A program made the translations under genes and the position numbers. This document shows positions 482 to 60,779 of a stretch of DNA of 64,000 nucleotides, piece by piece. The notes below the pieces were generated by a model. It saw only the letters and a list, made by a program, of their open reading frames with translations, did not search any database and was not told the origin of the DNA. Location: positions 54,407 to 118,406 of the IMG/VR virus record IMGVR_UViG_3300042402_002055; one strand, given 5' to 3'. Position 1 is the stretch's first letter. Each line of letters starts with the position of its first letter. This stretch comes from a virus.

Positions 482-685
482 ATGAAATTAGTAGGTGAAT
501 TACATCCAATGCATAAACTGACTGAAGAACAGGTATTGCAAATTAGGGAACTATATAAAATAGGTCATAGAAATATTAATGTAATAGCTAGGAACTATGG
601 AGTATCATCAGCTAATATAAAAAAAATAGTTACAAACGAAACATGGAAACACATGGTTAAGTGGCCATATGAAAGTACAAGATAA
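482..685 (+). CDS. small helix-turn-helix DNA-binding protein
   Basis: GELHPMHKLTEEQVLQIR...IARNYGVSSANIKKI resembles the HTH tail of phage HNH endonucleases; start moved to ATG 482, downstream of the promoter. Confidence 0.7.
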   Translation: MKLVGELHPMHKLTEEQVLQIRELYKIGHRNINVIARNYGVSSANIKKIVTNETWKHMVKWPYESTR

Positions 686-1436
686 ACAATATTGTGATAC
701 TTCCAAGTTTAGTGTAAGGTTAATAGAAAAGTCGGTTGCAAAGAATATAATAGTAAAATATCATTATTCTAAACAATGGACAAAAGTTAGTTACGCATTG
801 GGATTGTTCTACGAAAACGACACCGAACATAAATTCTTTGGTGGAGTAAATCAGGAACTAATTGGAGTGATTTGTTATGGTGACCCGATTGGTAGACATT
901 GTGGAGCATCTATAAGTGAAACATTGGATAGAACGGAAGTGATGGAATTAGTAAGACTTTTTGTATTTGACGGTTATGGTTGTAACATTGAAAGTTGGTT
1001 TGTCGGAAAGTCTTTTGAATGGTTAAAAGAAAACGCAAAACAAATAAGAGCACTGATATCATACTCCGACCCTGTGCAAGGACATAAAGGTCAAATATAT
1101 CAGGCAACAAATTGGTTATATCAAGGAACAAGTATTAGACCTAATGACACATGGTCTTTTCGTTTTGAAGAAGGTGGTAAATGGATACATGGTAGAACTA
1201 TGGCACCTTATTGGGGAACAACCTCACCTTTCAAATTACAAGAACTTATTGATAAACCATTTTGGGTAAAGAGAGAACCAAAGAAACATAGGTATATCTA
1301 CATTTTGGGCAAGGATAAAAAAGATAAAAAGGAATTATCAAAAAACATAAAACATCCTTTATATCCATACCCAAAAACATTAGAGAAATATACCGAAGAA
1401 ATATTAAAATTAGAACCAATTGAAAGAGTTAAATAA
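669..1436 (+). CDS. Mom-family (GNAT) adenine modification protein, copy 1
   Basis: IIVKYHYS, ELVRL, NIESWFVG, LISYSDPVQGHKGQIYQATNWLY, KHRYIY motifs. Confidence 0.8.
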   Translation: MKVQDKQYCDTSKFSVRLIEKSVAKNIIVKYHYSKQWTKVSYALGLFYENDTEHKFFGGVNQELIGVICYGDPIGRHCGASISETLDRTEVMELVRLFVFDGYGCNIESWFVGKSFEWLKENAKQIRALISYSDPVQGHKGQIYQATNWLYQGTSIRPNDTWSFRFEEGGKWIHGRTMAPYWGTTSPFKLQELIDKPFWVKREPKKHRYIYILGKDKKDKKELSKNIKHPLYPYPKTLEKYTEEILKLEPIERVK

Positions 1437-2223
1437 GTTATATTGTGATACAAGTAGAGTATCGGTTAGAGAAATAAGCAGTTCAGTTGCAAAAGAAATT
1501 ATAGTTAAGAAACACTATACACATGCATGGACTGCGTGTAGATATTCATTGGGTATCTTTTACAAAACTGATGAGTCAAATGCATTGGGTGATAATGATA
1601 AACTAATTGGATGTTTAGTGTATGGATTCCCAGTAGGTGCAAGAGCTGCAAATTCAGTTTCAGATTCAATTACAAAAGATAACATTTTAGAATTGACACG
1701 ATTGTATTGTGATGATGGATATGGTTCAAACATTGAGTCATATGCGTTAGGACAATCGTTTAAGTGGTTTAGAGAAAATGATAAAGCAATTAAAATCTTA
1801 ATCTCATACGCAGATAACGGACAAGAACATTTAGGAGGTATTTATCAGGCAACGAATTGGATTTATCAAGGAATGAATACCGATATTGCATTGATGCCAA
1901 ATTACGGAATATCACTTTCAAATGACCCTTACAAATGGATTCATAGCAGAACTGTGTTTTCAATGTGGGGTAGTGGTAATTTGGAACATCTTAGGAGAGA
2001 AATTGGTAAACAGGGATATAAAGAGTTTTGGAGAAGAGAAGAACCACCAAAACATAGATACATACAAGTATTGGGTGCAGACAAAAAAGAAAAAAGAGAA
2101 TTACTTAAAACTCTAAAACACGACCCAAAGTCATATCCAAAAGATACACGTGAATTTAATAAGGATATAGAAATCCATACTACAATTGCACCTGAAACCG
2201 AACTTGCAAGTAAGTTTTGGTAA
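1420..2223 (+). CDS. Mom-family (GNAT) adenine modification protein, copy 2
   Basis: IIVKKHYT, ELTRL, LISYADNGQEHLGGIYQATNWIY, KHRYI; paralog of the preceding ORF. Confidence 0.8.
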   Translation: MKELNKLYCDTSRVSVREISSSVAKEIIVKKHYTHAWTACRYSLGIFYKTDESNALGDNDKLIGCLVYGFPVGARAANSVSDSITKDNILELTRLYCDDGYGSNIESYALGQSFKWFRENDKAIKILISYADNGQEHLGGIYQATNWIYQGMNTDIALMPNYGISLSNDPYKWIHSRTVFSMWGSGNLEHLRREIGKQGYKEFWRREEPPKHRYIQVLGADKKEKRELLKTLKHDPKSYPKDTREFNKDIEIHTTIAPETELASKFW

Positions 2224-2251: not shown

Positions 2252-3427
2252 ATGAATAAATTTTGGGATACAGGCAATGAGCCTAAAAAATCAGACGGAT
2301 TTGATTTTGAAAAAAATAAAAGAGAGTTACTTGAAAATTTAGACTATCTAATGGGTATGTCAGTACAAGAACAAACCCTCTATAAGAAGTGGGTAGAATG
2401 GAATCAGGATTTACATGGTAGTATGAAATTACTTCCTGCATTACACCAACAATACGATAAGATTTGGGAACCCACAGACATATTGGATTATGATAAAACT
2501 GTAAAGGAAATACAAGAACTAGAACCATTTGTTGAATTGGTAGAAGATGGTGAAGCAACTCGTTGGACACATATGAGAAAGTTAATTTCCTCAATGGAAT
2601 TCAGTGCAAATCCAGGTCGTAATGTTAAAGCATTTGTGAAAGACAGAAAATCAAATAAAATATTAGGTGTTATTTCATTGGGTTCGGATATTACAAGTTT
2701 GGGTGTTAGAGATAATTTTATAGGTTGGAAAAAAGAAGATAAATTTCAAAATGGTAAATTAAATAACACCACAATCGGAACATCCATTATAGCAACACAA
2801 CCATTGGGTTATAATTTTTTAGGTGGTAAATTGGTCGCAGCATTAACTACATCTCCTGTTTTTAGAAAACAATGGAAAGAAAAATACAATAATATTTTAA
2901 TTGCAGTTGGAACTACTGCCTTATATGGTGCAAGTTCTCAATACAATGCAATTCCACATTTTAAAACATTAGGTGAAAGTAAAGGTTTAATTAACATTAA
3001 ACCAGATGATAAGTATTATGATATTTGGCATCAATATGTTAAAAATTTAGACCCAGTGTGGTATGATAAAGCGATAAACTCCACGGGCCCAAAACAAAAT
3101 GTTTTAATGAGAGTTTTTAAAGAAATCGATGTTAAGGCTTCTCTTTATAATCATGGTTTTAAGAGAGGTGTATATTTTGCACAAATGTATGAGAATGGTA
3201 ATGATTATCTATGTTCTAAAATTGATGAGGATAAATTGATAATGAAACCAAAGTTTGTACAAGGTGACGAATATACAATCAAATGGTGGAAAGATAAGGC
3301 AATAAAAAGATATACAACATTACATAGTGAAGGAAGATTAAAATCGGAAAAGTTATTTTATGCTGACATCATTGGAATGACATGGGAAGAATGTAAAGAA
3401 AAATATTTAAAAGAAGTGGGAAGATAA
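2252..3427 (+). CDS. DUF4338/DruA-like GNAT-fold protein
   Basis: PGRN..LGVISLGS..RDNFIGW, PLGYNFLGGKLVA and TTALYGASSQYN motifs. Confidence 0.65.
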   Translation: MNKFWDTGNEPKKSDGFDFEKNKRELLENLDYLMGMSVQEQTLYKKWVEWNQDLHGSMKLLPALHQQYDKIWEPTDILDYDKTVKEIQELEPFVELVEDGEATRWTHMRKLISSMEFSANPGRNVKAFVKDRKSNKILGVISLGSDITSLGVRDNFIGWKKEDKFQNGKLNNTTIGTSIIATQPLGYNFLGGKLVAALTTSPVFRKQWKEKYNNILIAVGTTALYGASSQYNAIPHFKTLGESKGLINIKPDDKYYDIWHQYVKNLDPVWYDKAINSTGPKQNVLMRVFKEIDVKASLYNHGFKRGVYFAQMYENGNDYLCSKIDEDKLIMKPKFVQGDEYTIKWWKDKAIKRYTTLHSEGRLKSEKLFYADIIGMTWEECKEKYLKEVGR

Positions 3428-3428
3428 T

Positions 3429-49970: not shown

Positions 49971-50411
49971 ATGTTCGTACCAAACCACTTACACCTATTA
50001 GTAAAAGGATATATTAAAACTCCACCAAAAACAGAAAAAGTGTTAAACATATGGTTTACACAGTTAGTACAAAATGTAGGAATGAAAGTGGTTGCAGGGC
50101 CCACATCGGTATATGTCAATGAACCTGGAAATGAAGGATTGACCGGTACTGTTACACTTGCAACATCACATGCATCAATTCATATTTGGGATAACATAAA
50201 TCCTGCTATGTTTCAATTTGACTTATATAGTTGTTCAAACTTTACACCACAACAGGTTTTAAACCACATTGACGATTGGTTTGGTTTACAAGAAGCACAT
50301 TGGCAATTCATTGATAGAAATGGTATTGAGTTTTACACATTAGATAGTGGAAATTTCAAAAAAGGATTGAGTTCTAAATTTGTAGATGTATTTAAAAAGA
50401 AAAAATTCTAA
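49971..50411 (+). CDS. speD: S-adenosylmethionine decarboxylase-like
   Basis: GLTG..LATSHASIHIW, FDLYSC. Confidence 0.8.
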   Translation: MFVPNHLHLLVKGYIKTPPKTEKVLNIWFTQLVQNVGMKVVAGPTSVYVNEPGNEGLTGTVTLATSHASIHIWDNINPAMFQFDLYSCSNFTPQQVLNHIDDWFGLQEAHWQFIDRNGIEFYTLDSGNFKKGLSSKFVDVFKKKKF

Positions 50412-52229: not shown

Positions 52230-52615
52230 GGGGATGCTTTGGAATTGATTGCAATGCAAATAGTAGTACCACACGTAGAGGTAAGTGATAGAAACTCTTT
52301 AAAACTGCACAAAACAATAACTGACGAAAAGTCAACTATGACTTACAACGACTTAATGGCGTTTGTAGGTATGGATTACGCTGTAGCAGCCTAACCAATC
52401 CCGTACACATCATGGGACTTTAAATAGAATGTGAAATACGGGCCACAGGTCGGAGCCCATTTAAAATAATTTCGAGACCAGGTTCTTTGGAAGTTTGTTT
52501 CCCACACACATCAAACTTTATATTTTGTCAATTAAGAAAAATTGAATAAACGTGTGAAATGCTGGTATTATTAGTTCTTTGTAAGACACGGGTTCGATTC
52601 CCGTCATCTCCACCA
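52230..52615 (+). ncRNA. ssrA: tmRNA
   Basis: GGGGATG/CATCTCC-ACCA acceptor with G3-U, T-arm GGGTTCGATTCCC, tag ORF 52323-52394 ending YAVAA*. Confidence 0.93.
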
Positions 52616-52666: not shown

Positions 52667-52738
52667 CGCGGGATAGAGCAGAGGTAGCTCACGTGGCTCA
52701 TAACCACAAGGTCGGAGGTTCGAATCCTTCTCCCGCAA
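52667..52738 (+). tRNA. tRNA-Met(CAT), initiator-like
   Basis: C1xA72 mismatch, CT-CAT-AA loop; only 2 of the 3 G-C anticodon-stem pairs. Confidence 0.88.
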
Positions 52739-52746
52739 CAAACTTG

Positions 52747-53044: not shown

Positions 53045-53915
53045 TTTACATAGTGAGTTCGTCTCACATAGTAAACAACCGCCGCCTATGGTGGTTAAAT
53101 AAACTACGAAAGTAGGATAAAGTGGGTGTATTAAGTGATACATCTGCGGCTACTCTCCCCGTAAGGAGAGATTAGCTTGAGTAGGCAAGTGGGATATTAT
53201 TTGAGCTTTGTACGAAAGGGTAACACTATATCGGAAGAGTTTGAATAGTTGGGGTAGTATAGATACTCCGACTGAGTTGGGAACAACAATAAGAATAACC
53301 CATAGAATATCAGTAAGAAGTGTAGACTTAATCCCTCTACATCATTGCGGTATTCAGTTTCAAAGTTATCTTAACATCAAGCCATCCGAAAGGACGCAAG
53401 ATAAGATAGTGTACAAGTGGTGTTGTTACCATCCTTATATAGAGTTTACCAAAACCTATATTTGAAGATGACTTAAAAAACGGCAGTAGGGATATTGCAT
53501 CGGGTAGTTTAGTATTCTCTCGTTCAAAAGATGAGGGAGCTAGTGGTAAACCACTACCTGAATGATTCTATAAACTAAAACTCAATTTTTACTAAGGTGT
53601 AAAAACTACAATTTAAAAATTAAGCATGAGTGTTTACCAGTTGCAGATGAAAGGTGTGTACATAGTTAAGAGATGTTCTTAGCCACGATACCTCCGCAAG
53701 AGGTCTGTGATTCTATCGAAAGGTTTCTAATTCCGCAAGAACTAATCAGGCTGCGAGGCTTGAAGAAAATAATTAAGTAGAGAGTAATCGGCAACTTAAA
53801 GACTGATAGTCTTAAATCATCCACATTGAATTGGTACTACTCAAAAGGTAGTGGAAACGGAAGGAAACAAATAATCTTTCTAAAGTCGGTTCACCAAATA
53901 GAGTATTCTCATCTA
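53045..53915 (+). ncRNA. large ornate non-coding RNA (GOLLD-like)
   Basis: ~870 nt without a credible ORF, higher GC, many hairpins with GNRA loops, located among tRNAs; boundaries approximate. Confidence 0.6.
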
Positions 53916-53922
53916 TTTATAA

Positions 53923-54018
53923 GCGGAGTTGGTGTAATGGTTCCACACGGGTTTACCCGCGGGATAGCACACTTACCGATCCAGGTGAGAGGATGTAGTT
54001 CGATTCTATGGCCCCGCT
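53923..54018 (+). tRNA. aberrant tRNA-Gly-like RNA
   Basis: GCGGAGT/GCCCCGC + U73, TTCGATT T-loop, hairpin inserted in D-loop, 8-nt CGATCCAG anticodon loop. Confidence 0.6.
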
Positions 54019-54125
54019 CAAAACGAAAATATTCGTGGTCTACATTTCCGGCTGTTTCTTATTCAACAGTCAAATCGTTTAAACTTAGACCTAAAAGATA
54101 GAACGAAAAAATAAAATTGGAAGTA

Positions 54126-54228
54126 AGTGTTTTAGGGAGGATTTTGGACATTAAAAATGCAATCAGAAACGATACACGATTGCCGGTTTCGTAGTCGTAC
54201 ACTACAAGAGTTACCGCCTCCTATAAAC
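54126..54228 (+). ncRNA. candidate structured RNA
   Basis: GGAGG/CCTCC closing stem; inner GCAATC/GATTGC with GAAAC/GTTTC pseudoknot. Confidence 0.4.
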
Positions 54229-54242
54229 TCTATTCATGTGCT

Positions 54243-54311
54243 AAGTAATTTAATGAGGCTTGTATTAACCAGAGCATGACTTGGATGGCGTATTTTGAAA
54301 TTAAATTACTT
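54243..54311 (+). ncRNA. candidate small RNA
   Basis: perfect 12-bp stem AAGTAATTTAAT/ATTAAATTACTT. Confidence 0.35.
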
Positions 54312-54350
54312 TTTAAATATTAAAATAAAAGAATTAGATATATATTAACG

Positions 54351-54440
54351 ATGAGAACTCTAACACATACACTTTGTAGTCAACCGAATCAGATTTGGAT
54401 TGGCAATTTTGTGCAGTTAGAGGATACGGATGTAGGATAA
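54351..54440 (+). CDS. 29-aa putative leader peptide
   Basis: MRTLTHTLCSQPNQIWIGNFVQLEDTDVG* upstream of a terminator and the tRNA array. Confidence 0.45.
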   Translation: MRTLTHTLCSQPNQIWIGNFVQLEDTDVG

Positions 54441-54509: not shown

Positions 54510-54583
54510 TCTCACTTGGCTCAGTTGGTTAGAGCGTCGCACTGTTAATGCGAAAGTCCTAAGTTCAAGTCTTAGAGTGAGAG
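54510..54583 (+). tRNA. tRNA-Asn(GTT)
   Basis: cloverleaf; TCGCA-CTGTTAA-TGCGA. Confidence 0.88.
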
Positions 54584-54592
54584 CAAACAAAA

Positions 54593-54665
54593 GCGGGTGT
54601 AGCTCAATTGGTAGAGTGCGTTCCTTCCAAGTACGAAGTTGCTGGTTCGAACCCAGTCACCCGCT
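54593..54665 (+). tRNA. tRNA-Gly(TCC)
   Basis: GCGGGTG/CACCCGC, CTTCCAA loop. Confidence 0.9.
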
Positions 54666-54745
54666 CAAACGGTTACCAATCCGGAACACGCCTGGAAGTT
54701 TAGTGTATTAGCACACCGGGAAATGGTGATAACAAAATTGGAAAT

Positions 54746-54816
54746 TGTCGGATGGTGTAATGGTAGCACAAATGTTTTTGGTACATTTAGTTTTGGTTCG
54801 AGTCCAGGTCCGATAA
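54746..54816 (+). tRNA. tRNA-Gln(TTG)
   Basis: AATGT-TTTTGGT-ACATT. Confidence 0.85.
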
Positions 54817-54821
54817 CAAAA

Positions 54822-54895
54822 TGGGAATTAGCGTAGTCAGGTATCGCGCTAGCTTTGGGAGCTAGAGGCCGTAGGTTCGAATCCTGCATTCCCAA
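54822..54895 (+). tRNA. tRNA-Pro(TGG)
   Basis: CTAGC-TTTGGGA-GCTAG. Confidence 0.9.
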
Positions 54896-54900
54896 CACTT

Positions 54901-54974
54901 TGGAATATAGCTCAATTGGTTAGAGCATTCGCCTGATACGTGAAAGGTTGAAAGTTCGAGTCTTTCTATTCCAA
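54901..54974 (+). tRNA. tRNA-Ile(GAT)
   Basis: TTCGC-CTGATAC-GTGAA. Confidence 0.9.
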
Positions 54975-54980
54975 CACACA

Positions 54981-55051
54981 TCCGGTTTGGTGCAATGGCA
55001 GCATGTAGGTCTCCAAAACCTTTGATTACAGTTCGAGTCTGTAAACCGGTG
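54981..55051 (+). tRNA. tRNA-Trp(CCA)
   Basis: AGGT-CTCCAAA-ACCT, G73. Confidence 0.85.
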
Positions 55052-55056
55052 CAATT

Positions 55057-55129
55057 AGTTCTATGGTGTAATTGGATAGCACGAAACACTACGGATGTTT
55101 TAGTTTGGGTTCGATTCCTAATAGGACTA
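55057..55129 (+). tRNA. tRNA-Arg(ACG)
   Basis: AAACA-CTACGGA-TGTTT. Confidence 0.88.
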
Positions 55130-55135
55130 CAATAT

Positions 55136-55205
55136 GGTCAGTTTGGTCGTGGAGGCCGGTGGGACTGCAAATCTTACGGAGTTGGTTCGATTCCAACATT
55201 GACCT
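55136..55205 (+). tRNA. tRNA-Cys(GCA)
   Basis: CTGCAAA loop, U73. Confidence 0.82.
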
Positions 55206-55210
55206 CAAAT

Positions 55211-55285
55211 GGTGTTTGAAGCATTAAGGTGATGCGTCGGTTTGTGGAGCCGGATAAGACGGGTCGGTACCGTCCTTACACCCCA
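55211..55285 (+). tRNA. tRNA-His(GTG), atypical T-loop
   Basis: G-1:C73, TTGTGGA loop, encoded CCA; T-loop GTCGGTA. Confidence 0.7.
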
Positions 55286-55287
55286 AA

Positions 55288-55371
55288 GGAAAGATGGGTG
55301 AGTGGTTTAAACCAGCAGTTTACTAAACTGCCGGCTCAAAAGGTCCGTGAGTTCGAATCTCACTCTTTCCG
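55288..55371 (+). tRNA. tRNA-Ser(ACT)
   Basis: GGAAAGA/TCTTTCC, G73, long variable arm, GCAGT-TTACTAA-ACTGC. Confidence 0.85.
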
Positions 55372-55376
55372 CAAAT

Positions 55377-55451
55377 GCCCGTATGGCGGAATTGGCATAC
55401 GCAGTGGTCTTAGAAGCCATACAATTATAGGTTCGACTCCTATTACGGGTA
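55377..55451 (+). tRNA. tRNA-Leu(TAG), short variable region
   Basis: GGCGGAATTGGCATACGC D-arm, CTTAGAA loop, A73. Confidence 0.8.
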
Positions 55452-55456
55452 CATTA

Positions 55457-55488
55457 TTTGGTAAAGTAAATTATTTATCGTATATTTA
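55457..55488 (+). promoter_or_regulatory. promoter
   Basis: tttggtaaagtaaattatttatcgtatattta. Confidence 0.75.
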
Positions 55489-55493
55489 ATTTA

Positions 55494-55618
55494 TAAGGTT
55501 GATTGGGAATAAAGATAGTCCGCTAAATCGAGTTAGTGCAAATCTAATAAACTGTCATTCGGTTAGTAAAGCCAATCATAAAAGTAAATGTCCACGCACC
55601 CATCTTTTACTTTCCTTA
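55494..55618 (+). ncRNA. candidate multi-stem small RNA
   Basis: TAAGG/CCTTA, TGATTGG/CCAATCA, GATAGT/ACTGTC, AAAGTAAA/TTTACTTT stems; T-loop-like TTAG-TGCAAAT-CTAA. Confidence 0.55.
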
Positions 55619-55621
55619 AAT

Positions 55622-55693
55622 GCTCAGTTCGACTAAGGGTTAGGTCACATCCCTTTCACGGATGTAATACGGGTTCGAATCCCGTACTGAGTA
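55622..55693 (+). tRNA. tRNA-Glu(TTC)
   Basis: CATCC-CTTTCAC-GGATG. Confidence 0.9.
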
Positions 55694-55698
55694 CAATA

Positions 55699-55771
55699 GC
55701 CCGAGTAGCTCAGCTGGTAGAGCAACTGATTTGTAATCAGTAGGTCGTAAGTTCGATTCTTATCTTGGGCT
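55699..55771 (+). tRNA. tRNA-Thr(TGT)
   Basis: ACTGA-TTTGTAA-TCAGT. Confidence 0.9.
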
Positions 55772-55775
55772 CAAT

Positions 55776-55849
55776 GGATGGGTAGTTCAGTTGGTTAGAA
55801 TGTCGGCTTGTCACGCCGAAGGTCGCGGGTTCGAGTCCCGTCCCGTCCG
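55776..55849 (+). tRNA. tRNA-Asp(GTC)
   Basis: TCGGC-TTGTCAC-GCCGA. Confidence 0.92.
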
Positions 55850-55854
55850 CAACG

Positions 55855-55926
55855 GGTCTGTTAGTTAAATGGATATAACTTCTCACTTCTAATGAGATGT
55901 TCGTGGTTCGATTCCACGACGGACTA
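55855..55926 (+). tRNA. tRNA-Arg(TCT)
   Basis: TCTCA-CTTCTAA-TGAGA. Confidence 0.9.
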
Positions 55927-55932
55927 CAATAT

Positions 55933-56040
55933 GCCGGTGTGGCGGAATGATAATTGTACAGTTATTAGACGTCCCGTAATTCTAGAAAGGTGATGTATCC
56001 GAAATGGACATCGTGTGGGTAATCAGTCCCTCCACCGGCA
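55933..56040 (+). ncRNA. aberrant tRNA-Leu-like RNA
   Basis: perfect GCCGGTG/CACCGGC + A73, GGCGGAA..AGACG D-arm with hairpin insert, long variable arm, degenerate anticodon arm and T-loop. Confidence 0.55.
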
Positions 56041-56042
56041 CC

Positions 56043-56131
56043 TTATGGGCTTTGATGATACAGCCATAAAGAGAGACAGATGTTTCTCATTCATCATAAA
56101 ATAGGTAGGTGACTCCACACCTGCTTATTTT
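56043..56131 (+). ncRNA. candidate pseudoknot + hairpin
   Basis: TTATGG/CCATAA crossed by TGATGA/TCATCA; 13-bp hairpin 56098-56130 with T-tract. Confidence 0.35.
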
Positions 56132-56135
56132 TAAA

Positions 56136-56209
56136 GGGAATGTAGCTCAGTTGGTTAGAGCAAAAAACTCATAATTTTGAGGTCACAGGTTCGAGCCCTG
56201 TCTTTCCCA
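56136..56209 (+). tRNA. tRNA-Ile2/Met(CAT)
   Basis: GGG start and CTCATAAT context typical of lysidine Ile2. Confidence 0.8.
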
Positions 56210-56217
56210 CAAAAAGA

Positions 56218-56249
56218 TTTGGTAATATGAAAATATTATCGTATATTTA
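56218..56249 (+). promoter_or_regulatory. promoter
   Basis: tttggtaatatgaaaatattatcgtatattta. Confidence 0.75.
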
Positions 56250-56265
56250 TTAAAATTAGAAAATT

Positions 56266-56535
56266 ATGAATTGGTTTGTTATTTATTATGTTATCAGTAT
56301 TGTTTATTGTTTTTATCAGTTGAATGTTAAATACAAAGAAAGAGGAGTTGAATATAGTTCTCCTGAATTGGATGCAATTATGGTATTAGTTATGGCATGG
56401 GTATTAGCCCCTGTCGATGTATCTATCACTTGGATTAGAATGGTCAAAAAAGCAGAGGAAGCTAGAATAAGACAATCATCTACTACCTTTTTAGATGCAG
56501 ATACTTTCAGAAATGAAGAAACACATATCTATTAG
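56266..56535 (+). CDS. small membrane protein
   Basis: two hydrophobic segments. Confidence 0.65.
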   Translation: MNWFVIYYVISIVYCFYQLNVKYKERGVEYSSPELDAIMVLVMAWVLAPVDVSITWIRMVKKAEEARIRQSSTTFLDADTFRNEETHIY

Positions 56536-56546
56536 TAGAATATAAT

Positions 56547-56631
56547 AGAGAGTTGGCCGAGCGGTTGATGGCACCAGTCTTGAAAACTGGCAAGTGTAAA
56601 AGCTTCTGGGGTTCGAATCCCTAACTCTCTG
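56547..56631 (+). tRNA. tRNA-Ser(TGA)
   Basis: CCAGT-CTTGAAA-ACTGG, long variable arm. Confidence 0.92.
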
Positions 56632-56645
56632 CAAAAACAAAAGTT

Positions 56646-57164
56646 ATGACACTAAAAGAAGCAACTGCCGAATTACATAGTAAGGCAGAAAAGATGGATT
56701 TTAATCAAAGAATGTTTGCGGGTAAATTGAGTAATGATGAATACTTAAATTATCTAATTCAACAATCTTACATTTTCCAAGAAATAGAAAATAGAAATTT
56801 ACCGCATCCAAATTTACAAAGATTAAGTTCAATCAATGAAGATATAAATGAATTGGGTGGATATAAATTTAAGATAAGCAAACCAACAACCGATTATGTT
56901 GTTTATTTGGGTGACTTAAATCAGTCAAACTTAAATGCACACATCTATCTTAATTACTTAGCTATTATGTTTGGTGGACAAATGATGAAATCAAAAGTTC
57001 CAGGTAGTGGTAAGATGTATGACTTTGAAGGTGACATGAGAGAATTGATTGGTAGTGTTAGAGCAATTCAAAATGATGGAATGGCCGACGAAGTAAATAA
57101 AGGTTTTATATTTATCATAAACATATTAGATGAATTACAAAGAAACTCTGGACAAACTATCTAA
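56646..57164 (+). CDS. heme oxygenase
   Basis: LKEAT..LH..AE, AHIYLNYL..MFGGQM, PGSG.MY. Confidence 0.88.
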   Translation: MTLKEATAELHSKAEKMDFNQRMFAGKLSNDEYLNYLIQQSYIFQEIENRNLPHPNLQRLSSINEDINELGGYKFKISKPTTDYVVYLGDLNQSNLNAHIYLNYLAIMFGGQMMKSKVPGSGKMYDFEGDMRELIGSVRAIQNDGMADEVNKGFIFIINILDELQRNSGQTI

Positions 57165-57762
57165 TGATATCCAATGGTTGATTTATCAGTTAGCAGATGG
57201 TGTTAAAATCGAAACGGAAGATTTTGGTTGGGACAATCGTAGATACGCATCAAATCGATTTAGAATGGCACACATTGAAAGATATTCCGATTCAAATTTA
57301 GAAGTATTACACTTTACTTGTTTTCCTACAAAATACTCACAATTGCCAATATTTGGATGTGATATAATTACAACCGATAAAAAACCATTGGCAGCATTTA
57401 TGGATTGGTCACCTGTTGATTCTGCATTAGAAATGACTATGACACATCAATTTGAAAAACCATATCCATTACCTGATTGGGCTAAGATTATATTTTCACC
57501 AACAGCATTGGCAATTGTCCCATCGGATAATGAAATGGAAAAATTAACGGAAGTAATATTACAAAGTTTTAAAACATATATTTCTTTATTGGGTAGTAGT
57601 AAAGATAAAAGTGAAAGAGTTGATTATATAATAGCAGCACAAAATCGATATTGTGAAAATCAACAAAAGAACGAAAGAACTTATAATGTATTGAAAGCAA
57701 AATTAGGAAAAGAAAGAGCTAAATACTTTATGGAAACAATCCTATTCCCGAAGATAGATTAA
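57130..57762 (+). CDS. ferredoxin-dependent bilin reductase (PcyA/PcyX-like)
   Basis: FRMAHIE, VLHF.CFP, PIFGCDI, DWSP, LPDWA.IIFS, QNRYC.NQQKN; adjacent to heme oxygenase. Confidence 0.85.
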   Translation: MNYKETLDKLSNDIQWLIYQLADGVKIETEDFGWDNRRYASNRFRMAHIERYSDSNLEVLHFTCFPTKYSQLPIFGCDIITTDKKPLAAFMDWSPVDSALEMTMTHQFEKPYPLPDWAKIIFSPTALAIVPSDNEMEKLTEVILQSFKTYISLLGSSKDKSERVDYIIAAQNRYCENQQKNERTYNVLKAKLGKERAKYFMETILFPKID

Positions 57763-58981: not shown

Positions 58982-59817
58982 TGGAAAGAAATACTATAAT
59001 ATTTACAGGTGCATCACATACATTTGGATTGGGATTAGAATGGGAATTAGACCCAATATTAAATAGTGAAGAATATTTACAAAAAGGTGTTAATATTCCC
59101 ATTCCAAGACCGGATGTATATCAAAAATATTGGAGAGAAAATAGATGGCCTACTTTGGTATGTAATGAATTAGGATATACTCAATATAATGTTCATGATT
59201 CCGAAAATAAAATATTAATTGGAGGAAACGCAGTTGAAACATTGTGGATGATGGTTAAAAAAGAAAATGAACTTAAAGATTTATTTTCTAAAACAAAATA
59301 TATTGTATTAGAAACGGGTGGTAATGTTAGATGGTATGACGAAGAATTACATGGTGGAATAGATGGTGACAAATATCCAAATACAGTTATAGAAATGATT
59401 AATCTAATTAACAATCCCAATAGTGATGCATTGGTTGTTGCTAAAACTTTAGAATGGATTGATAATATAGACCCGGTTATTTATTCAAAAGAACTAACTG
59501 ATAAAATTTTATATCTTACAAAAAAATATCCAGAAATTAAATTTATAATATTACCATGGCATCAATTAGAACCAATAAAAAATGTTTCGAAACTTTTAAG
59601 AGATAGTATAGTAGAAATTAAAGAAAATGATAAAAGTTATAAAGATGTAAATAATTTTTTAGAAAAAGAAAAAATACAAGTTTGGAATAAAGCCAAAGCA
59701 TTTAATGGTAATTACAAATACAATATGATAGAACAACATGCATCAATTGAAGGACATAAGAGAGTTGCGGATATTGTCATAAATCACATTAAAAAATTAG
59801 AAAATGAAAAAAAATAA
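58981..59817 (+). CDS. SGNH-like protein (paralog 7)
   Basis: FTGASHTFG, RWP, QHASIEGH. Confidence 0.6.
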   Translation: MERNTIIFTGASHTFGLGLEWELDPILNSEEYLQKGVNIPIPRPDVYQKYWRENRWPTLVCNELGYTQYNVHDSENKILIGGNAVETLWMMVKKENELKDLFSKTKYIVLETGGNVRWYDEELHGGIDGDKYPNTVIEMINLINNPNSDALVVAKTLEWIDNIDPVIYSKELTDKILYLTKKYPEIKFIILPWHQLEPIKNVSKLLRDSIVEIKENDKSYKDVNNFLEKEKIQVWNKAKAFNGNYKYNMIEQHASIEGHKRVADIVINHIKKLENEKK

Positions 59818-60295
59818 GATATGGTTGTATTTGGATGATGTCCGAATACCAACTGAGGGTGATTGGCAAGTCGTAAGAAACTATGATGAATTGGTTGCAC
59901 ATATCAAAATGAATGGTTTGGAAAATTATGAAGTAATTAGTTTAGACCATGATTTAGGTGAAGGTGCAATGATTGAATATTATACAAATGTAAAACCTAA
60001 TTATGAATTGGACTACAATCGTATACCTGAAAAAACAGGAATGGATTGTGCAAGATACTTGGTAGCCGAATCAATGAATACAAAGATTCCTTTACCAACT
60101 ATTTATGTTCACTCAGCAAATCCAATTGGAGCAGCAAATATTATAGGATATGTAAACAACTATTTTAGAAATAATAAATTACCAGAAGTATGTGTAAAAG
60201 TAAATATTGAACATACATATGCACCTGATACAATTATGACGGAAGAGGAAAGAAACAATAGATACAAAATACTACAAAAATATAAAAACAAATAA
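59804..60295 (+). CDS. cyclic-phosphate-processing receiver-domain protein
   Basis: LYLDDVR, ISLDHDLG, TG.D, VHSANP.G. Confidence 0.8.
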   Translation: MKKNKIWLYLDDVRIPTEGDWQVVRNYDELVAHIKMNGLENYEVISLDHDLGEGAMIEYYTNVKPNYELDYNRIPEKTGMDCARYLVAESMNTKIPLPTIYVHSANPIGAANIIGYVNNYFRNNKLPEVCVKVNIEHTYAPDTIMTEEERNNRYKILQKYKNK

Positions 60296-60296
60296 T

Positions 60297-60779
60297 ATGA
60301 AACAAAAAGAAAACTTAATAATACTTTTTATTTTAATTGCGGTTTGGTTTAGATTGATACCACATTTACCTAATTTTACACCTGTGACTGCATTGGCTTT
60401 ATTTTCAGGTTTAATGTTGAAAAGAAAATGGTTGAGTATTGGTATTCCATTAGTTGCAATGATGGTATCGGACTTAGTTTTAGGATTTAGTGCAATATCA
60501 ATTTGGGTATATTTGGGATTTGCATCAATTACAATTATTGGATGGTTTTTAGATAAAATGAATGCAAAGTCAATTTTATTGTCATCTTTAATATTTTTTA
60601 TAGTTTCAAATTTTGGAGCATGGTTAATTGGATATCCACACACAATTGAAGGTTTAATGATGTGTTATACATTAGCAATACCATTTTTTGGATATTCTAT
60701 TTTAGGTGATTTATTTTGGGGATATACATTTAAACATTCTTATAAGTTTATAGAAAGTAAATTTTTAAAAGTAGCATAA
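60297..60779 (+). CDS. DUF6580-like membrane transport protein
   Basis: RLIPHLPNFTP, SD..LG, F.VSNFG.W, CY..AIPFF. Confidence 0.75.
   Translation: MKQKENLIILFILIAVWFRLIPHLPNFTPVTALALFSGLMLKRKWLSIGIPLVAMMVSDLVLGFSAISIWVYLGFASITIIGWFLDKMNAKSILLSSLIFFIVSNFGAWLIGYPHTIEGLMMCYTLAIPFFGYSILGDLFWGYTFKHSYKFIESKFLKVA

What the first reader, a model, noticed from the sequence alone, without database searches (positions are those of the whole stretch)
53923..54018. Non-decoding tRNA-Gly-like RNA: possible dedicated glycyl donor for the Mom enzymes
Seen: Gly-type acceptor (G1-C72, C2-G71, U73) and CC in the anticodon loop. The loop is 8 nt and lacks U33 (CGATCCAG), the T-stem has two G-U pairs, and a hairpin of ~25 nt (TTCCACACGGGTTTACCCGCGGGA) is inserted in the D-loop. 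A normal tRNA-Gly(TCC) sits 600 bp downstream, so this copy is not needed for decoding. Known: staphylococci use non-proteinogenic tRNA-Gly with altered T-arms for GNAT-fold Fem transferases, and the Mom adduct is a glycinamide. I recall glycyl-tRNA being reported as the Mom donor; that should be verified. Inference: a phage-encoded EF-Tu/ribosome-evading Gly-tRNA supplies DNA hypermodification.
Basis: partly seen in the sequence, partly recalled or inferred. Interest (0 to 1): 0.82.

Follow-up and report, generated by a model that had tools for sequence, protein, structure and literature searches.

The report
Phage glycine tRNA partnered with Mom
This odd glycine tRNA belongs to a widespread family of phage tRNA genes that travel with the Mom DNA-modifying enzyme, which is known to take its glycine from charged tRNA, so the phage most likely supplies its own donor tRNA that is kept out of protein synthesis.

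Summary
Window 53923-54018 is a 96-nt cloverleaf with a glycine-type acceptor, a UCC anticodon in an 8-nt loop without U33, and a 24-nt hairpin in the D-loop. Standard tRNA finders miss it.

It is not a pseudogene. It belongs to a conserved phage family (covariation 0.66-0.75 against 0.18-0.22 shuffled). Members keep G1-C72, C2-G71, G3-C70, U73 and C35-C36 but depart from decoding features. Only 14 of 59 unique mom-adjacent members have a 7-nt loop with U33, against 579 of 583 ordinary tRNAs in the same loci.

In 79 of 80 Mom-selected small-phage loci a Gly-type element abuts or overlaps mom. Among near-complete GOLLD phages, Mom is present in 6 of 7 with the family tRNA and 1 of 7 without. 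Published work shows Mom uses Gly-tRNAGly, and the papers I searched report no phage-encoded donor.

Caveats: charging, EF-Tu evasion and use by Mom are untested. The window copy lies 52 kb from its two mom genes. Exceptions exist both ways.

Verdict: supported; a new variant of a known kind; high interest.

The parts
53923..54018 (+). tRNA-Gly(UCC)-derived RNA, G1 to U73 (96 nt); a member of the mom-linked family
   Evidence: Sequence. Family model R1 gives 69.4 bits, E 1.6e-17, full length. Aligned with 48 other unique members.
53942..53965 (+). 24-nt hairpin insert in the D-loop
   Evidence: Absent from 42 of the 49 sequences in A1. Homologous inserts occur in L218 and in L204, L141, L152 and L207. 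The hairpin is predicted.
53977..53984 (+). 8-nt anticodon loop CGAUCCAG (UCC at 53980-53982; no U33; C32 and G38 could pair)
   Evidence: UCCAG is invariant in all 49 sequences of A1.
53500..53915 (+). GOLLD RNA, conserved 3' domain, ending 7 nt before the element
   Evidence: Rfam RF02032, 283.7 bits, gathering score 150. Deep RNA contigs in 4 metatranscriptome runs.
669..1436 (+). Mom-family GNAT, paralog 1
   Evidence: PF25680 at 149 bits. phrog_1384. Residues aligned with Mu's catalytic R and S are kept.
1420..2223 (+). Mom-family GNAT, paralog 2
   Evidence: PF25680 at 146.3 bits. Catalytic-equivalent residues are kept.
54593..54666 (+). Canonical decoding tRNA-Gly(UCC), loop CUUCCAA (U33, A38)
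   Evidence: ARAGORN, Rfam tRNA 64.4 bits, loop read.
54510..56632 (+). Array of 16 ordinary tRNA genes downstream
   Evidence: ARAGORN and Rfam.

Best explanation
The element is a phage-encoded tRNA-Gly(UCC) derivative. Its job is to be charged with glycine by the host GlyRS and to hand that glycine to the phage's Mom enzymes, which modify adenine in phage DNA, rather than to decode GGN codons.

The family keeps what GlyRS and an acceptor-end-reading transferase would need: G1-C72, C2-G71, G3-C70, U73, C35 and C36. It has lost what the ribosome and EF-Tu need: U33, a 7-nt loop, and in many members tight T-stem pairs 49-65 and 51-63, the UUC T-loop and the G18-G19 elbow. This would insulate Mom's glycine supply from translation, as staphylococci do for Fem transferases.

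In this large phage the gene sits 7 nt behind the very abundant GOLLD RNA. It is probably made from the same transcript and released by RNase P.

Shown here: the structure, its conservation, the loss of decoding features, and the genomic coupling to mom. Shown by others: the Mom chemistry. Inferred: charging, EF-Tu and ribosome avoidance, use by Mom, and co-transcription and processing with GOLLD.
For: (1) Chemistry. Mom uses Gly-tRNAGly, all three E. coli isoacceptors work, Gly-tRNAAla does not, and the authors suspect recognition of the acceptor end (PMC13219725).

(2) Reverse test. Of 80 loci picked by a Mom protein motif alone, 74 have a Gly-type tRNA at mom's end by model R1. Of the six misses, four have diverged Gly-type tRNAs, one has a 48-nt mini element, and one has nothing in the 105 nt available. 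That makes 79 of 80. The mom frame usually overlaps the tRNA (median -22 nt), with 39 co-directional and 35 convergent.

(3) Forward test. Mom is over Pfam's cut-off in 31 of 39 records with family tRNAs not next to GOLLD. A Mom ORF lies within 0-47 nt in 31 loci that span Mom lineages only 20-30% identical to each other.

(4) GOLLD phages at least 90% complete. Mom is present in 6 of 7 with a family tRNA and 1 of 7 without, that one a 35.5-bit hit (Fisher p = 0.029).

(5) Selected RNA. On A2, 96.0% of cells are paired, 16 of 21 pairs change on both sides, and the covariation score is 0.664 against 0.183 shuffled (0 of 500). On the independent Mom-selected set A5 the figures are 95.0% paired, 18 of 21 pairs, and 0.751 against 0.222.

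(6) Identity kept, decoding lost. In 59 unique mom-adjacent tRNAs, C35-C36 is kept in 59 of 59 and GCG...CGC-U73 in 57 of 59. Only 14 of 59 have a 7-nt loop with U33, and 33 of 59 have 8-nt loops. The baseline is U33 in 579 of 583 unique non-Gly tRNAs from the same loci (p = 7e-52). T-stem pair 51-63 is unpaired in 52 of 59 and 49-65 is missing in 52 of 59. Those pairs set EF-Tu affinity (PMC7826273 Discussion).

(7) Division of labour. The window and at least 9 other loci carry both a canonical CUUCCAA tRNA-Gly and a family member with G38.

(8) Cultured example. Psychrobacter phage vB_PmaS_Y8A has two unannotated D-armless Gly-type mini-tRNAs between mom and terS. Each has a 5-nt UUCCC loop on a 7-bp stem, which cannot decode.

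(9) No integrase is nearby. The order is ParB_N, Mom, tRNA, terS-like, TerL in 4 of 4 loci examined.
Against: - RNA contigs cover GOLLD but not the element, which the tool says is no evidence either way.
- In the window the element is 52 kb from mom and touches GOLLD instead. In this large-phage clade the association may partly reflect shared ancestry.
- Of 28 Mom-selected records from the window's Mom clade, only 1 has a family tRNA. I gave that of the 80 loci: I took contigs of about 24 kb or more and left out 4 records already known to hold the tRNA, plus the shorter ones. Two of the 28, 81-84% complete, have Mom but no tRNA of any kind and no GOLLD in what was recovered.
- Three genomes at least 90% complete have family-type tRNAs but no PF25680 and no PF22559 (G069, G073, G078).
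- Mu, JD024 and P12002L show no such element near mom. Cyanophage S-SSM6a has only a canonical tRNA-Gly. So Mom does not need a dedicated tRNA.
- 14 of 59 mom-adjacent members have normal loops and could decode.
- The window copy has a canonical T-loop and a fully paired T-stem, so EF-Tu avoidance is not evident for this copy.
- A2 and A5 are fitted to the model, which favours the structure.
- The 80 loci come from one Mom sub-clade (65-100% identity) and are not 80 independent events.
Confidence: 0.6

Rival explanations
1. It is a working decoder. The phage adds Gly-tRNA capacity, perhaps to offset Mom's drain on the pool, and the altered anticodon loop protects it from host anticodon nucleases or other tRNA-targeting defences.
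For: Phage tRNAs are reported to evade tRNA-targeting defences through anticodon-loop mutations (eLife 2023, PMC10264068; I saw only the title and search listing, and a term search of its text). 14 of 59 mom-adjacent members have normal loops. The UCC anticodon and A37 are kept throughout. Cassette turnover between near-identical phages looks like an arms race.
Against: - 8-nt loops in 33 of 59 members, and 5-nt loops on 7-bp stems in the cultured example, are not compatible with normal decoding.
- T-stem pairs that set EF-Tu affinity are broken in 52 of 59.
- A canonical tRNA-Gly(UCC) co-exists in the same genomes.
- That paper's text mentions neither U33 nor glycine tRNAs.
- Evasion alone does not explain why only glycine tRNAs sit beside mom (74 of 74).
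Confidence: 0.15
2. In this window it is mainly a punctuation mark for GOLLD: a tRNA-shaped RNase P site that defines GOLLD's 3' end, with its glycine identity being historical.
For: - It starts 7 nt after GOLLD.
- Of 121 GOLLD 3' flanks, 21 have an ARAGORN-called tRNA starting 8-18 nt after the terminal hairpin: 16 Met, 4 Gly and 1 undetermined.
- Six loci of the same GOLLD subclade carry only an acceptor-plus-T-arm stub there.
- RNA contig cover of GOLLD stops at about 53899-53917 in four runs. One contig bridges into a relative's element.
Against: - RNase P does not need the anticodon arm, yet UCCAG is invariant while the stem beneath it changes with compensation.
- The same family occurs without any GOLLD, next to mom.
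- Among GOLLD phages, the Gly-type slot tracks the presence of Mom.
- This role is compatible with the best explanation rather than opposed to it.
Confidence: 0.1
3. It is a cis-acting or regulatory RNA for mom (a processing site, a terminator, or a tRNA mimic that binds and restrains a toxic enzyme), not a glycine donor.
For: The mom reading frame runs into the tRNA in most small-phage loci. In co-directional cases mom's stop codon often lies in the tRNA's D-arm, so RNase P cleavage would cut mom's message before its stop. Untimely mom expression is described as toxic and is tightly controlled in Mu (abstract of PMC3378877, seen in the listing).
Against: - This cannot apply in cis to the window copy, which is 52 kb from mom.
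- Strict retention of the glycine identity set, and of an encoded CCA in some members, points to aminoacylation.
- Both orientations occur about equally (39 and 35), which a purely cis role does not predict.
Confidence: 0.08
4. It is a decaying tRNA pseudogene, or a leftover of a phage attachment site.
For: tRNA finders reject it. It has an insertion and an abnormal loop. GenBank annotators left the Psychrobacter phage elements unannotated.
Against: - All four stems are intact. Family-wide compensatory change, 0 of 500 shuffles reaching the observed score, and slid controls of 0.06-0.17 all argue for selection.
- The insert is shared by two lineages.
- No integrase lies beside mom-tRNA pairs in 4 of 4 loci.
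- A host-derived attachment-site copy would keep U33.
Confidence: 0.04

Closest known systems
Non-proteogenic tRNA-Gly (NP1-NP3) of Staphylococcus aureus and S. epidermidis, glycine donors for the FmhB, FemA and FemB transferases
   Same: - Extra tRNA-Gly(UCC) genes sit beside proteogenic ones.
- They are charged by the normal GlyRS and serve a transferase outside the ribosome.
- UGC or UGU replaces UUC in the T-loop, which is also seen in 10 of 59 mom-adjacent phage members.
- The anticodon stem has 6 bp with a small loop. The phage family's invariant C32 and G38 would allow the same.
- T-stem pairs 49-65 and 51-63 are weakened, lowering EF-Tu affinity.
(PMC7826273 Introduction and Discussion; phage data.)
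   Different: - The staphylococcal lineage is cellular and restricted to staphylococci, so any likeness is convergent.
- The phage partner is Mom and the acceptor substrate is DNA, not peptidoglycan precursors.
- Phage members go further: no U33, 8-nt or 5-nt loops, D-arm loss, D-loop hairpin inserts.
- The window copy keeps a UUC T-loop.
Phage Mu Mom with host Gly-tRNAGly (Silva et al., Nat Commun 2026; bioRxiv 2023)
   Same: Same enzyme family (PF25680), with the catalytic-equivalent R and S conserved. The donor is glycine on a tRNA-Gly body.
   Different: Mu relies on host tRNAs, and I found no tRNA-like element near its mom. The paper describes scavenging a host resource and, in the parts I read or searched by term, mentions no phage-encoded donor or gene neighbourhood.
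tRNAs and pseudo-tRNAs associated with GOLLD RNA
   Same: GOLLD lies in phage tRNA islands. tRNAs are sometimes present in its linker. A pseudo-tRNA is reported inside a mycobacterial GOLLD (bioRxiv 10.1101/2024.12.08.627333, passages; PMC6582537, passages).
   Different: Here the tRNA abuts GOLLD's 3' end rather than sitting in the linker. It is a specific non-canonical Gly family, and its presence tracks Mom. The passages I read describe neither point.
Phage tRNAs with anticodon-loop mutations that evade host tRNA-targeting defences (eLife 2023, PMC10264068)
   Same: Phage-encoded tRNAs whose anticodon loops differ from the host's.
   Different: Those tRNAs are proposed to keep decoding. The text of that paper mentions neither U33 nor glycine tRNAs. 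No linkage to a DNA-modification gene is described in its title or listing.

Membership tests
Canonical elongator tRNA (Rfam RF00005 / ARAGORN) | Scores at or above the Rfam tRNA gathering score (29 bits), or is called by ARAGORN | tested here: not met
   No RF00005 match at gathering score or at E up to 10. ARAGORN lists 17 tRNAs and a tmRNA but not this element.
Canonical elongator tRNA (Rfam RF00005 / ARAGORN) | Four-arm cloverleaf with 7-bp acceptor, D, anticodon and T stems | tested here: met
   Full-length alignment to R1 with all 21 model pairs placed, one non-standard (A5.C68). Family covariation.
Canonical elongator tRNA (Rfam RF00005 / ARAGORN) | 7-nt anticodon loop with U33 | tested here: not met
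   The loop is CGAUCCAG, 8 nt, with A before the anticodon. Baseline: U33 in 579 of 583 ordinary tRNAs.
Substrate of bacterial GlyRS (identity set recalled from my own knowledge: G1-C72, C2-G71, G3-C70, U73, C35, C36) | The identity nucleotides are present | tested here: met
   All six are present in the window copy. Among 59 unique mom-adjacent members: G1-C72 in 59, C2-G71 in 59, G3-C70 in 57, C35-C36 in 59.
Substrate of bacterial GlyRS (identity set recalled from my own knowledge: G1-C72, C2-G71, G3-C70, U73, C35, C36) | It is actually glycylated | not testable with these tools
   Needs an aminoacylation assay or charge-sensitive tRNA sequencing.
Staphylococcal-type non-proteogenic tRNA-Gly | UCC anticodon, alongside a proteogenic tRNA-Gly in the same genome | tested here: met
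   UCC at 53980-53982. The canonical copy is at 54593-54666.
Staphylococcal-type non-proteogenic tRNA-Gly | UGC or UGU instead of UUC in the T-loop (PMC7826273) | tested here: not met
   The window T-loop is UUCGAUU. The feature is met in 10 of 59 unique mom-adjacent relatives and in both Psychrobacter phage elements.
Staphylococcal-type non-proteogenic tRNA-Gly | Weak EF-Tu binding through T-stem pairs 49-65, 50-64 and 51-63 | tested here: inconclusive
   The window has U.G, G.U and U-A, all paired; their affinity is unknown. In relatives, 51-63 is unpaired in 52 of 59 and 49-65 is absent in 52 of 59. Binding itself is not testable here.
Staphylococcal-type non-proteogenic tRNA-Gly | Belongs to the evolutionary lineage found only in staphylococci and serves Fem transferases (abstract of PMC7826273) | tested here: not met
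   It is phage-encoded in freshwater viral contigs, and the linked enzyme is Mom. It works like this family but is not a member.
Mom family (PF25680), the proposed partner | Pfam score over the cut-off, and the catalytic arginine and serine conserved | tested here: met
   149 and 146.3 bits against a cut-off of 27.1. The R and S aligned with Mu R101 and S114 are invariant. I infer that R101/S114 are the paper's R111/S124 because the paper's construct drops 10 N-terminal residues.
GOLLD RNA (RF02032), the neighbour | Score at or above the gathering score over the full model | tested here: met
   283.7 bits against 150, model positions 1-416 of 416.
Mom-linked variant tRNA-Gly family (defined here) | Full-length R1 match with C32...UCC-A37-G38 and a GCG...CGC-U73 acceptor | tested here: met
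   69.4 bits. These features are seen in all 49 sequences of A1 apart from small acceptor variants.
Mom-linked variant tRNA-Gly family (defined here) | A Mom gene in the same genome | tested here: met
   Two Mom genes at 669-2223.
Mom-linked variant tRNA-Gly family (defined here) | Direct adjacency to mom | tested here: not met
   51.7 kb apart in the window. Adjacency holds in small phages. In large GOLLD phages the tRNA lies 8-64 kb from mom.

The most novel reading that the evidence does not exclude
Momylation in many environmental phages is a two-gene system: a Mom enzyme plus a private, translation-insulated glycyl-tRNA donor. In large freshwater phages that donor is built into the GOLLD transcript. 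GOLLD's unknown function would then be tied to it, for example if the 14-mer GOLLD cage (reported by others) carries, protects or concentrates tethered Gly-tRNA donors for DNA modification just before packaging.
Probability: 0.08. Interest if true: 0.95.

Novelty: new variant of a known kind. Interest (0 to 1): 0.85.

Why it matters
Mom's use of charged tRNA to modify DNA was established only recently, and it is presented as scavenging a host resource. This finding suggests that many phages instead bring their own donor. That donor is a tRNA-Gly reshaped so that, by sequence, it should still be charged but should be poor in translation.

That would be the first viral counterpart of the staphylococcal non-proteogenic tRNAs, and the first dedicated tRNA for a DNA modification.

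It would give a function to a class of phage 'pseudo-tRNAs' that annotation pipelines skip or mislabel. It offers natural minimal substrates (65-nt and 48-nt forms) for working out what GlyRS and Mom recognise. It also gives GOLLD, an abundant RNA of unknown function, a concrete genetic partner to test.

A cultured phage (Psychrobacter phage vB_PmaS_Y8A) carries the arrangement, so the idea can be tested directly.

Tried and rejected
- **Folding energy.** The single-sequence fold gave z = -0.53, which is uninformative.
- **blastn against cultured phages.** The 1.2-kb region matched only the neighbouring tRNA-Asn (23 records, none covering the element).
- **tblastn with the window's Mom proteins.** This found only 19 loci and missed most small-phage Moms that Pfam sees. 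I replaced it with an iterated HMM.
- **Expression.** 24 runs hold part of the stretch. Contigs of 4 runs cover GOLLD deeply but leave 53958-54004 uncovered in all four. No contig skips the D-loop insert, so splicing of the insert is untested.
- **Reverse test in the window's own Mom clade.** 1 of 28 records. This is inconclusive because 26 of them are under 55% complete, and the two best lack the whole tRNA/GOLLD island in what was recovered.
- **A second phage GNAT (PF22559) as partner in the Mom-less exceptions.** Found in 1 of 8 records (only G061, the L177 record). It does not explain G069, G073 or G078.
- **'tRNA-OTHER' next to the Mom homolog of cyanophage S-SSM6a.** Not a family member (CTTATAA loop). 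Melnitz phage has a tRNA-like element 0.9 kb upstream of its Mom homolog, but with a non-Gly acceptor, so I did not count it.
- **Attachment-site idea.** No integrase domain among the ORFs flanking mom-tRNA in 4 of 4 loci.
- **Natural frameshift-suppressor idea for the 8-nt loops.** Considered but not tested. The extra base lies 5' of the anticodon, varies (A, G, or AU/GA contexts), and alternates with 7-nt non-U33 and 5-nt loops. The idea also does not explain the mom linkage.
- **Supplementary files of the Mom papers.** Not available to me.
Full report
**What is there**

Window 53923-54018 (+) reads as a 96-nt cloverleaf from G1 to the discriminator U73.
- Acceptor stem: G1-C72, C2-G71, G3-C70, G4-C69, A5.C68 (a mismatch), G6-C67, U7.G66.
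- D-stem: GUGU/GCAC.
- Anticodon arm: stem CUUAC/GUGAG closes the 8-nt loop CGAUCCAG, with UCC at 53980-53982 and no U before it.
- T-stem: UGUAG/CUAUG with two G.U pairs, and a canonical UUCGAUU loop.
- D-loop: a 24-nt hairpin (53942-53965).

ARAGORN lists 17 tRNAs and a tmRNA in the window but not this element. Rfam's tRNA model misses it at its gathering score and even at E up to 10. Its folding energy is ordinary (z = -0.53). A normal tRNA-Gly(UCC) lies at 54593-54666.

The window is part of a 118-kb IMG/VR viral contig estimated at 63% complete. Two tandem Mom-family genes lie at 669-1436 and 1420-2223 (PF25680, 149 and 146 bits). They sit next to a DruA-like gene and a family B DNA polymerase. 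Heme oxygenase, a bilin reductase and SAM decarboxylase genes flank the tRNA island.

**The premise from the literature**

Silva et al. (Nat Commun 2026, PMC13219725; I read the abstract, passages, the Discussion and one Methods section) show the following. The 2023 preprint (10.1101/2023.03.24.534169) I saw only as its listing abstract and through a term search of its text.
- Mu Mom transfers glycine from Gly-tRNAGly to N6 of adenine in dsDNA.
- All three E. coli tRNA-Gly isoacceptors work.
- Glycine on tRNA-Ala does not.

The authors describe this as harvesting a readily available host resource. They cite the staphylococcal special tRNAs only as a precedent.

Term searches of both texts for tRNA gene, neighbour, adjacent, genomic context, co-occur and phage-encoded found nothing relevant. 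Library searches for momylation (4 papers) and for Mom with tRNAGly, phage, hypermodification and tRNA-like (6 papers) found no report of a mom-linked tRNA gene. A 2021 jumbo-phage survey still assumed an acyl-CoA donor.

**GOLLD flanks**

I examined 121 flanks (120 loci plus the window).
- 21 have an ARAGORN-called tRNA starting 8-18 nt after GOLLD's terminal hairpin: 16 Met, 4 Gly(UCC) and 1 undetermined.
- Many others have a terminator-like hairpin.
- Eleven (10 loci plus the window) carry a Gly-type element like the window's, 8-12 nt after GOLLD. Their anticodon stems differ but compensate, and UCCAG is invariant. Their loops are CUUCCAG, CGUCCAG, CAUUCCAG or, in the window, CGAUCCAG.
- Six loci of the same GOLLD subclade carry only an acceptor-plus-T-arm stub.

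**The family**

- 92 elements passed an acceptor-pairing test, giving 58 unique sequences. Of these, 49 are tRNA-shaped. The other 9 are chance matches inside coding sequence.
- Loops among the 49: CAUCCAG 16, CUUCCAG 9, CAUUCCAG 8, CGUCCAG 8, CCUCCAG 6, CAAUCCAG 1, CGAUCCAG 1.
- A covariance model built on them scores the window element 69.4 bits and the window's canonical tRNA-Gly 47.8 bits.
- On the model-fitted alignment of 79 matches (59 distinct), 96.0% of cells pair against 71.2% when shuffled. 16 of 21 pairs change on both sides. The covariation score is 0.664 against 0.183 (0 of 500 shuffles), and 0.10-0.14 with partners slid.

These are selected RNAs, not decaying copies. The fit to the model favours the structure somewhat.

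**The D-loop insert**

The insert is not unique to the window. A homologous hairpin occurs in L218, which is GOLLD-adjacent, has a normal loop, and comes from a 238-kb genome called 100% complete. It also occurs in a second lineage (L204, L141/L206, L152, L207), whose ortholog L127 lacks it. With effectively three independent versions, covariation in the insert cannot be judged. Its role is unexplained.

**Coupling to mom, forward direction**
- PF25680 is over its cut-off in 31 of 39 records holding family tRNAs away from GOLLD, most of them contigs of 4-35 kb.
- It is over the cut-off in 6 of 19 further records, 12 of which are under 30% complete.
- It is found in 4 of the first 10 GOLLD-adjacent Gly-type records, 0 of 7 records of the same GOLLD subclade without the Gly type, and 1 of 17 other GOLLD records.
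- An iterated Mom HMM places a Mom ORF 0-47 nt from the tRNA in 31 loci, 27 convergent and 4 co-directional. These loci span Mom lineages only 20-30% identical to one another.

**Coupling to mom, reverse direction**

Eighty loci were chosen only by a Mom peptide motif and similarity to a small-phage Mom.
- 74 have an R1 match beginning at the end of the mom match. All 74 are glycine-type.
- Of the 6 misses, four hold diverged Gly-type tRNAs, one holds a 48-nt mini element with a Gly-type acceptor, and one has nothing in the 105 nt available. That makes 79 of 80.
- The mom frame usually runs into the tRNA gene (median -22 nt, range -102 to +62). 39 are co-directional and 35 convergent.
- The gene order is ParB_N protein, Mom, tRNA, terS-like DUF5681, TerL in 4 of 4 loci, with no integrase.

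These 80 loci come from one Mom sub-clade (65-100% identity), so they are not independent events. The linkage nonetheless persists through changes of orientation and across 59 distinct tRNA sequences.

**Results against a strict link**
- Of the 80 loci most like the window's own Mom, I searched 28 whole records. I took contigs of about 24 kb or more, and left out four records already known to have the tRNA, plus the shorter ones. Only one has a family tRNA: G093, a near-identical relative of the window.
- Two records 81-84% complete have Mom but no tRNA of any kind and no GOLLD in what was recovered.
- Three genomes at least 90% complete have family-type tRNAs without PF25680 (G069, G073, G078) and without PF22559.
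- One search listed 110 cultured phage records with a Mom-like match, and I examined 6. Mu, JD024 and P12002L show nothing near mom. S-SSM6a has only a canonical tRNA-Gly. Melnitz has an ambiguous non-Gly tRNA-like element. Only the Psychrobacter phage has Gly-type elements.

**GOLLD phages at least 90% complete**

Mom is present in 6 of 7 with a family tRNA (G004, G074, G079, G080, G081, G084; not G078). It is present in 1 of 7 without (G021, a 35.5-bit hit; G018, G022, G023, G025, G029 and G032 have none over the cut-off). The controls carry only canonical CUUCCAA tRNA-Gly genes, or none. Fisher p = 0.029. Shared ancestry weakens this figure.

**Signs that the family does not decode**

Among 59 unique mom-adjacent tRNAs from the Mom-selected set:
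- C35-C36 is kept in 59 and GCG...CGC-U73 in 57.
- Only 14 have a 7-nt loop with U33, and 33 have 8-nt loops.
- The T-loop begins UGC in 10 and another non-UUC triplet in 5.
- The D-loop lacks GG in 17.

Across all loci, ARAGORN-called non-Gly tRNAs have U33 in 579 of 583 unique sequences (p = 7e-52).

On this independent set the cloverleaf again covaries (95.0% paired; 0.751 against 0.222; 0 of 500). However, T-stem pair 51-63 is unpaired in 52 of 59 and 49-65 is missing in 52 of 59.

The staphylococcal study states that EF-Tu affinity for the tRNA body is set almost only by pairs 49-65, 50-64 and 51-63. It also states that glycine needs a tight body, and that the non-proteogenic tRNAs weaken these pairs, carry UGC or UGU in the T-loop, and have a 6-bp anticodon stem with a small loop (PMC7826273 Introduction and Discussion).

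Ordinary tRNA-Gly(UCC) genes in these phages read CUUCCAA, whereas family members read ...UCCAG, so C32 can pair with G38. The window and at least nine other loci carry both kinds.

The window copy is extreme in its loop and D-loop, but its T-arm is normal.

**A cultured example**

In Psychrobacter phage vB_PmaS_Y8A (OQ059336.1), the 165-nt unannotated gap between mom and terS holds two tandem Gly-type elements (L393:2662-2726 and 2734-2799). Each has a GCG...CGC acceptor, U73, an encoded CCA, a UGC T-loop, no D-arm, and a 7-bp stem closing a UUCCC loop. R1 scores them only 12 bits (E 0.13), so I recognised them by reading the sequence. They cannot decode, and they offer a tractable test.

**GOLLD and expression**

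Twenty-three metatranscriptome runs from lakes and rivers each hold about a third of the 1.4-kb stretch.
- In four runs from four studies, contigs of very high depth cover 53300-53910. Cover ends at about 53899-53917.
- No contig covers 53958-54004.
- Low cover (depth about 5-80) resumes over 54052-54427 in two runs.
- One contig bridges GOLLD's 3' end into a relative's Gly-type element.

This shows GOLLD is abundant in RNA libraries and that read-through molecules exist. It does not show whether the element is expressed or processed.

G093 has flanks nearly identical to the window's but a quite different cassette (8-nt CAUUCCAG loop, aberrant T-loop, no insert). The window's cassette instead matches that of L218, whose GOLLD terminus differs. 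So this slot turns over or recombines faster than its surroundings.

**How it most likely works**

The element is probably transcribed with GOLLD and released by RNase P and 3' processing, then completed with CCA (the window encodes only C74). The host GlyRS would charge it through its intact identity set. EF-Tu and the ribosome would handle it poorly. Mom1 and Mom2 would then use it to glycylate adenines in phage DNA late in infection.

Only the structure, conservation, loss of decoding features and genomic coupling are shown here. The chemistry of Mom is shown by others. Every step specific to this RNA is inferred.

I put 0.6 on the dedicated-donor reading. By my estimate, about 0.85 applies to the weaker claim that the family is functionally tied to Mom.

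**Comparison with what is known, and verdict**

It works like the staphylococcal non-proteogenic tRNA-Gly but is not of that lineage. It extends the Mom system with a second, RNA component that the papers I could search do not report. It gives GOLLD a specific partner.

I file it as a new variant of a known kind, of high interest.

Noticed in passing
window 53500-53915 (and upstream towards tRNA-Met at 52667-52739): A full-length GOLLD RNA sits directly before the element. Contigs of very high depth cover it in four lake and river metatranscriptome runs, and cover ends at about 53899-53917.
   Followed up: partly
L313-L392 (Mom-selected small-phage loci): The mom reading frame usually runs into the tRNA gene (median overlap 22 nt, up to 102 nt). 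In co-directional cases mom's stop codon is often the TAA of the tRNA's conserved GUGUAA D-arm. RNase P cleavage would then remove mom's stop codon from a shared transcript.
   Followed up: partly
L393:2662-2726 and 2734-2799 (Psychrobacter phage vB_PmaS_Y8A, OQ059336.1): Two tandem, unannotated, D-armless Gly-type mini-tRNAs with encoded CCA and 5-nt UUCCC loops lie between mom and the small terminase gene of a cultured phage.
   Followed up: partly
L177:2405-2475 and 2419-4512: A family tRNA (CAUCCAG loop) abuts a 697-aa protein with amidoligase, DAM-like and phage GNAT-like (PF22559) domains, in a record with no PF25680. This may be a second kind of GNAT DNA modifier paired with this tRNA.
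   Followed up: partly
L310 (G093) against window 53860-54110 and L218:9800-10030: A phage with nearly identical flanks carries a very different Gly-type cassette. The window's cassette matches that of a phage with a different GOLLD terminus. The slot behind GOLLD is swapped or evolves fast.
   Followed up: partly
L095, L108, L116, L014, L061, L050 (just 3' of GOLLD): In the same GOLLD subclade the slot holds only a minihelix-like stub (acceptor stem plus T-arm with a UUCGAUU loop). It has no D or anticodon arm and no Gly-type acceptor. None of these six records shows Mom, but all are fragments.
   Followed up: partly
L102 (after GOLLD), compared with L099: A Glu-like tRNA behind another GOLLD also carries a hairpin insert in its D-loop, at the same place as the window's insert. 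Its relative L099 lacks it.
   Followed up: no
L178:528-675, L168:4865-5013, L031:172-528, L169:8671-9028, L112:3004-3150: Several large phages carry two or three family-type copies in tandem, or close together, behind GOLLD.
   Followed up: no
window 54019-54427 (for example 54032-54040 and about 54246-54302): Sequence just after the element is conserved in relatives. A short UUCGURGU-like motif follows many GOLLD-adjacent tRNAs, and a block of about 57 nt is shared with L080, L038, L022 and others. Two RNA runs show low cover (depth about 5-80) there. This may be another small RNA.
   Followed up: no
window 52230-52615; 49971-50411; 56646-57762; 59804-60779; 2252-3427: The phage encodes its own tmRNA. 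It also has SAM decarboxylase, heme oxygenase and a bilin reductase, which I recall as typical cyanophage accessory genes. Further genes are a cREC_REC plus DUF6580 pair near the tRNA island and a DruA-like gene right after the Mom pair.
   Followed up: no
L398:497-567 (Methylophilales phage Melnitz-3, MZ577098.1): A tRNA-like element with the family's D-arm and a UCC-containing loop, but a non-Gly acceptor, lies inside an annotated hypothetical CDS, 0.9 kb upstream of the Mom homolog.
   Followed up: no
L374, just after mom (about 3250-3300): A 48-nt element with a Gly-type acceptor (GCG...CGC-U) and two small hairpins takes the place of the tRNA. It may be a minimal form of the donor.
   Followed up: no
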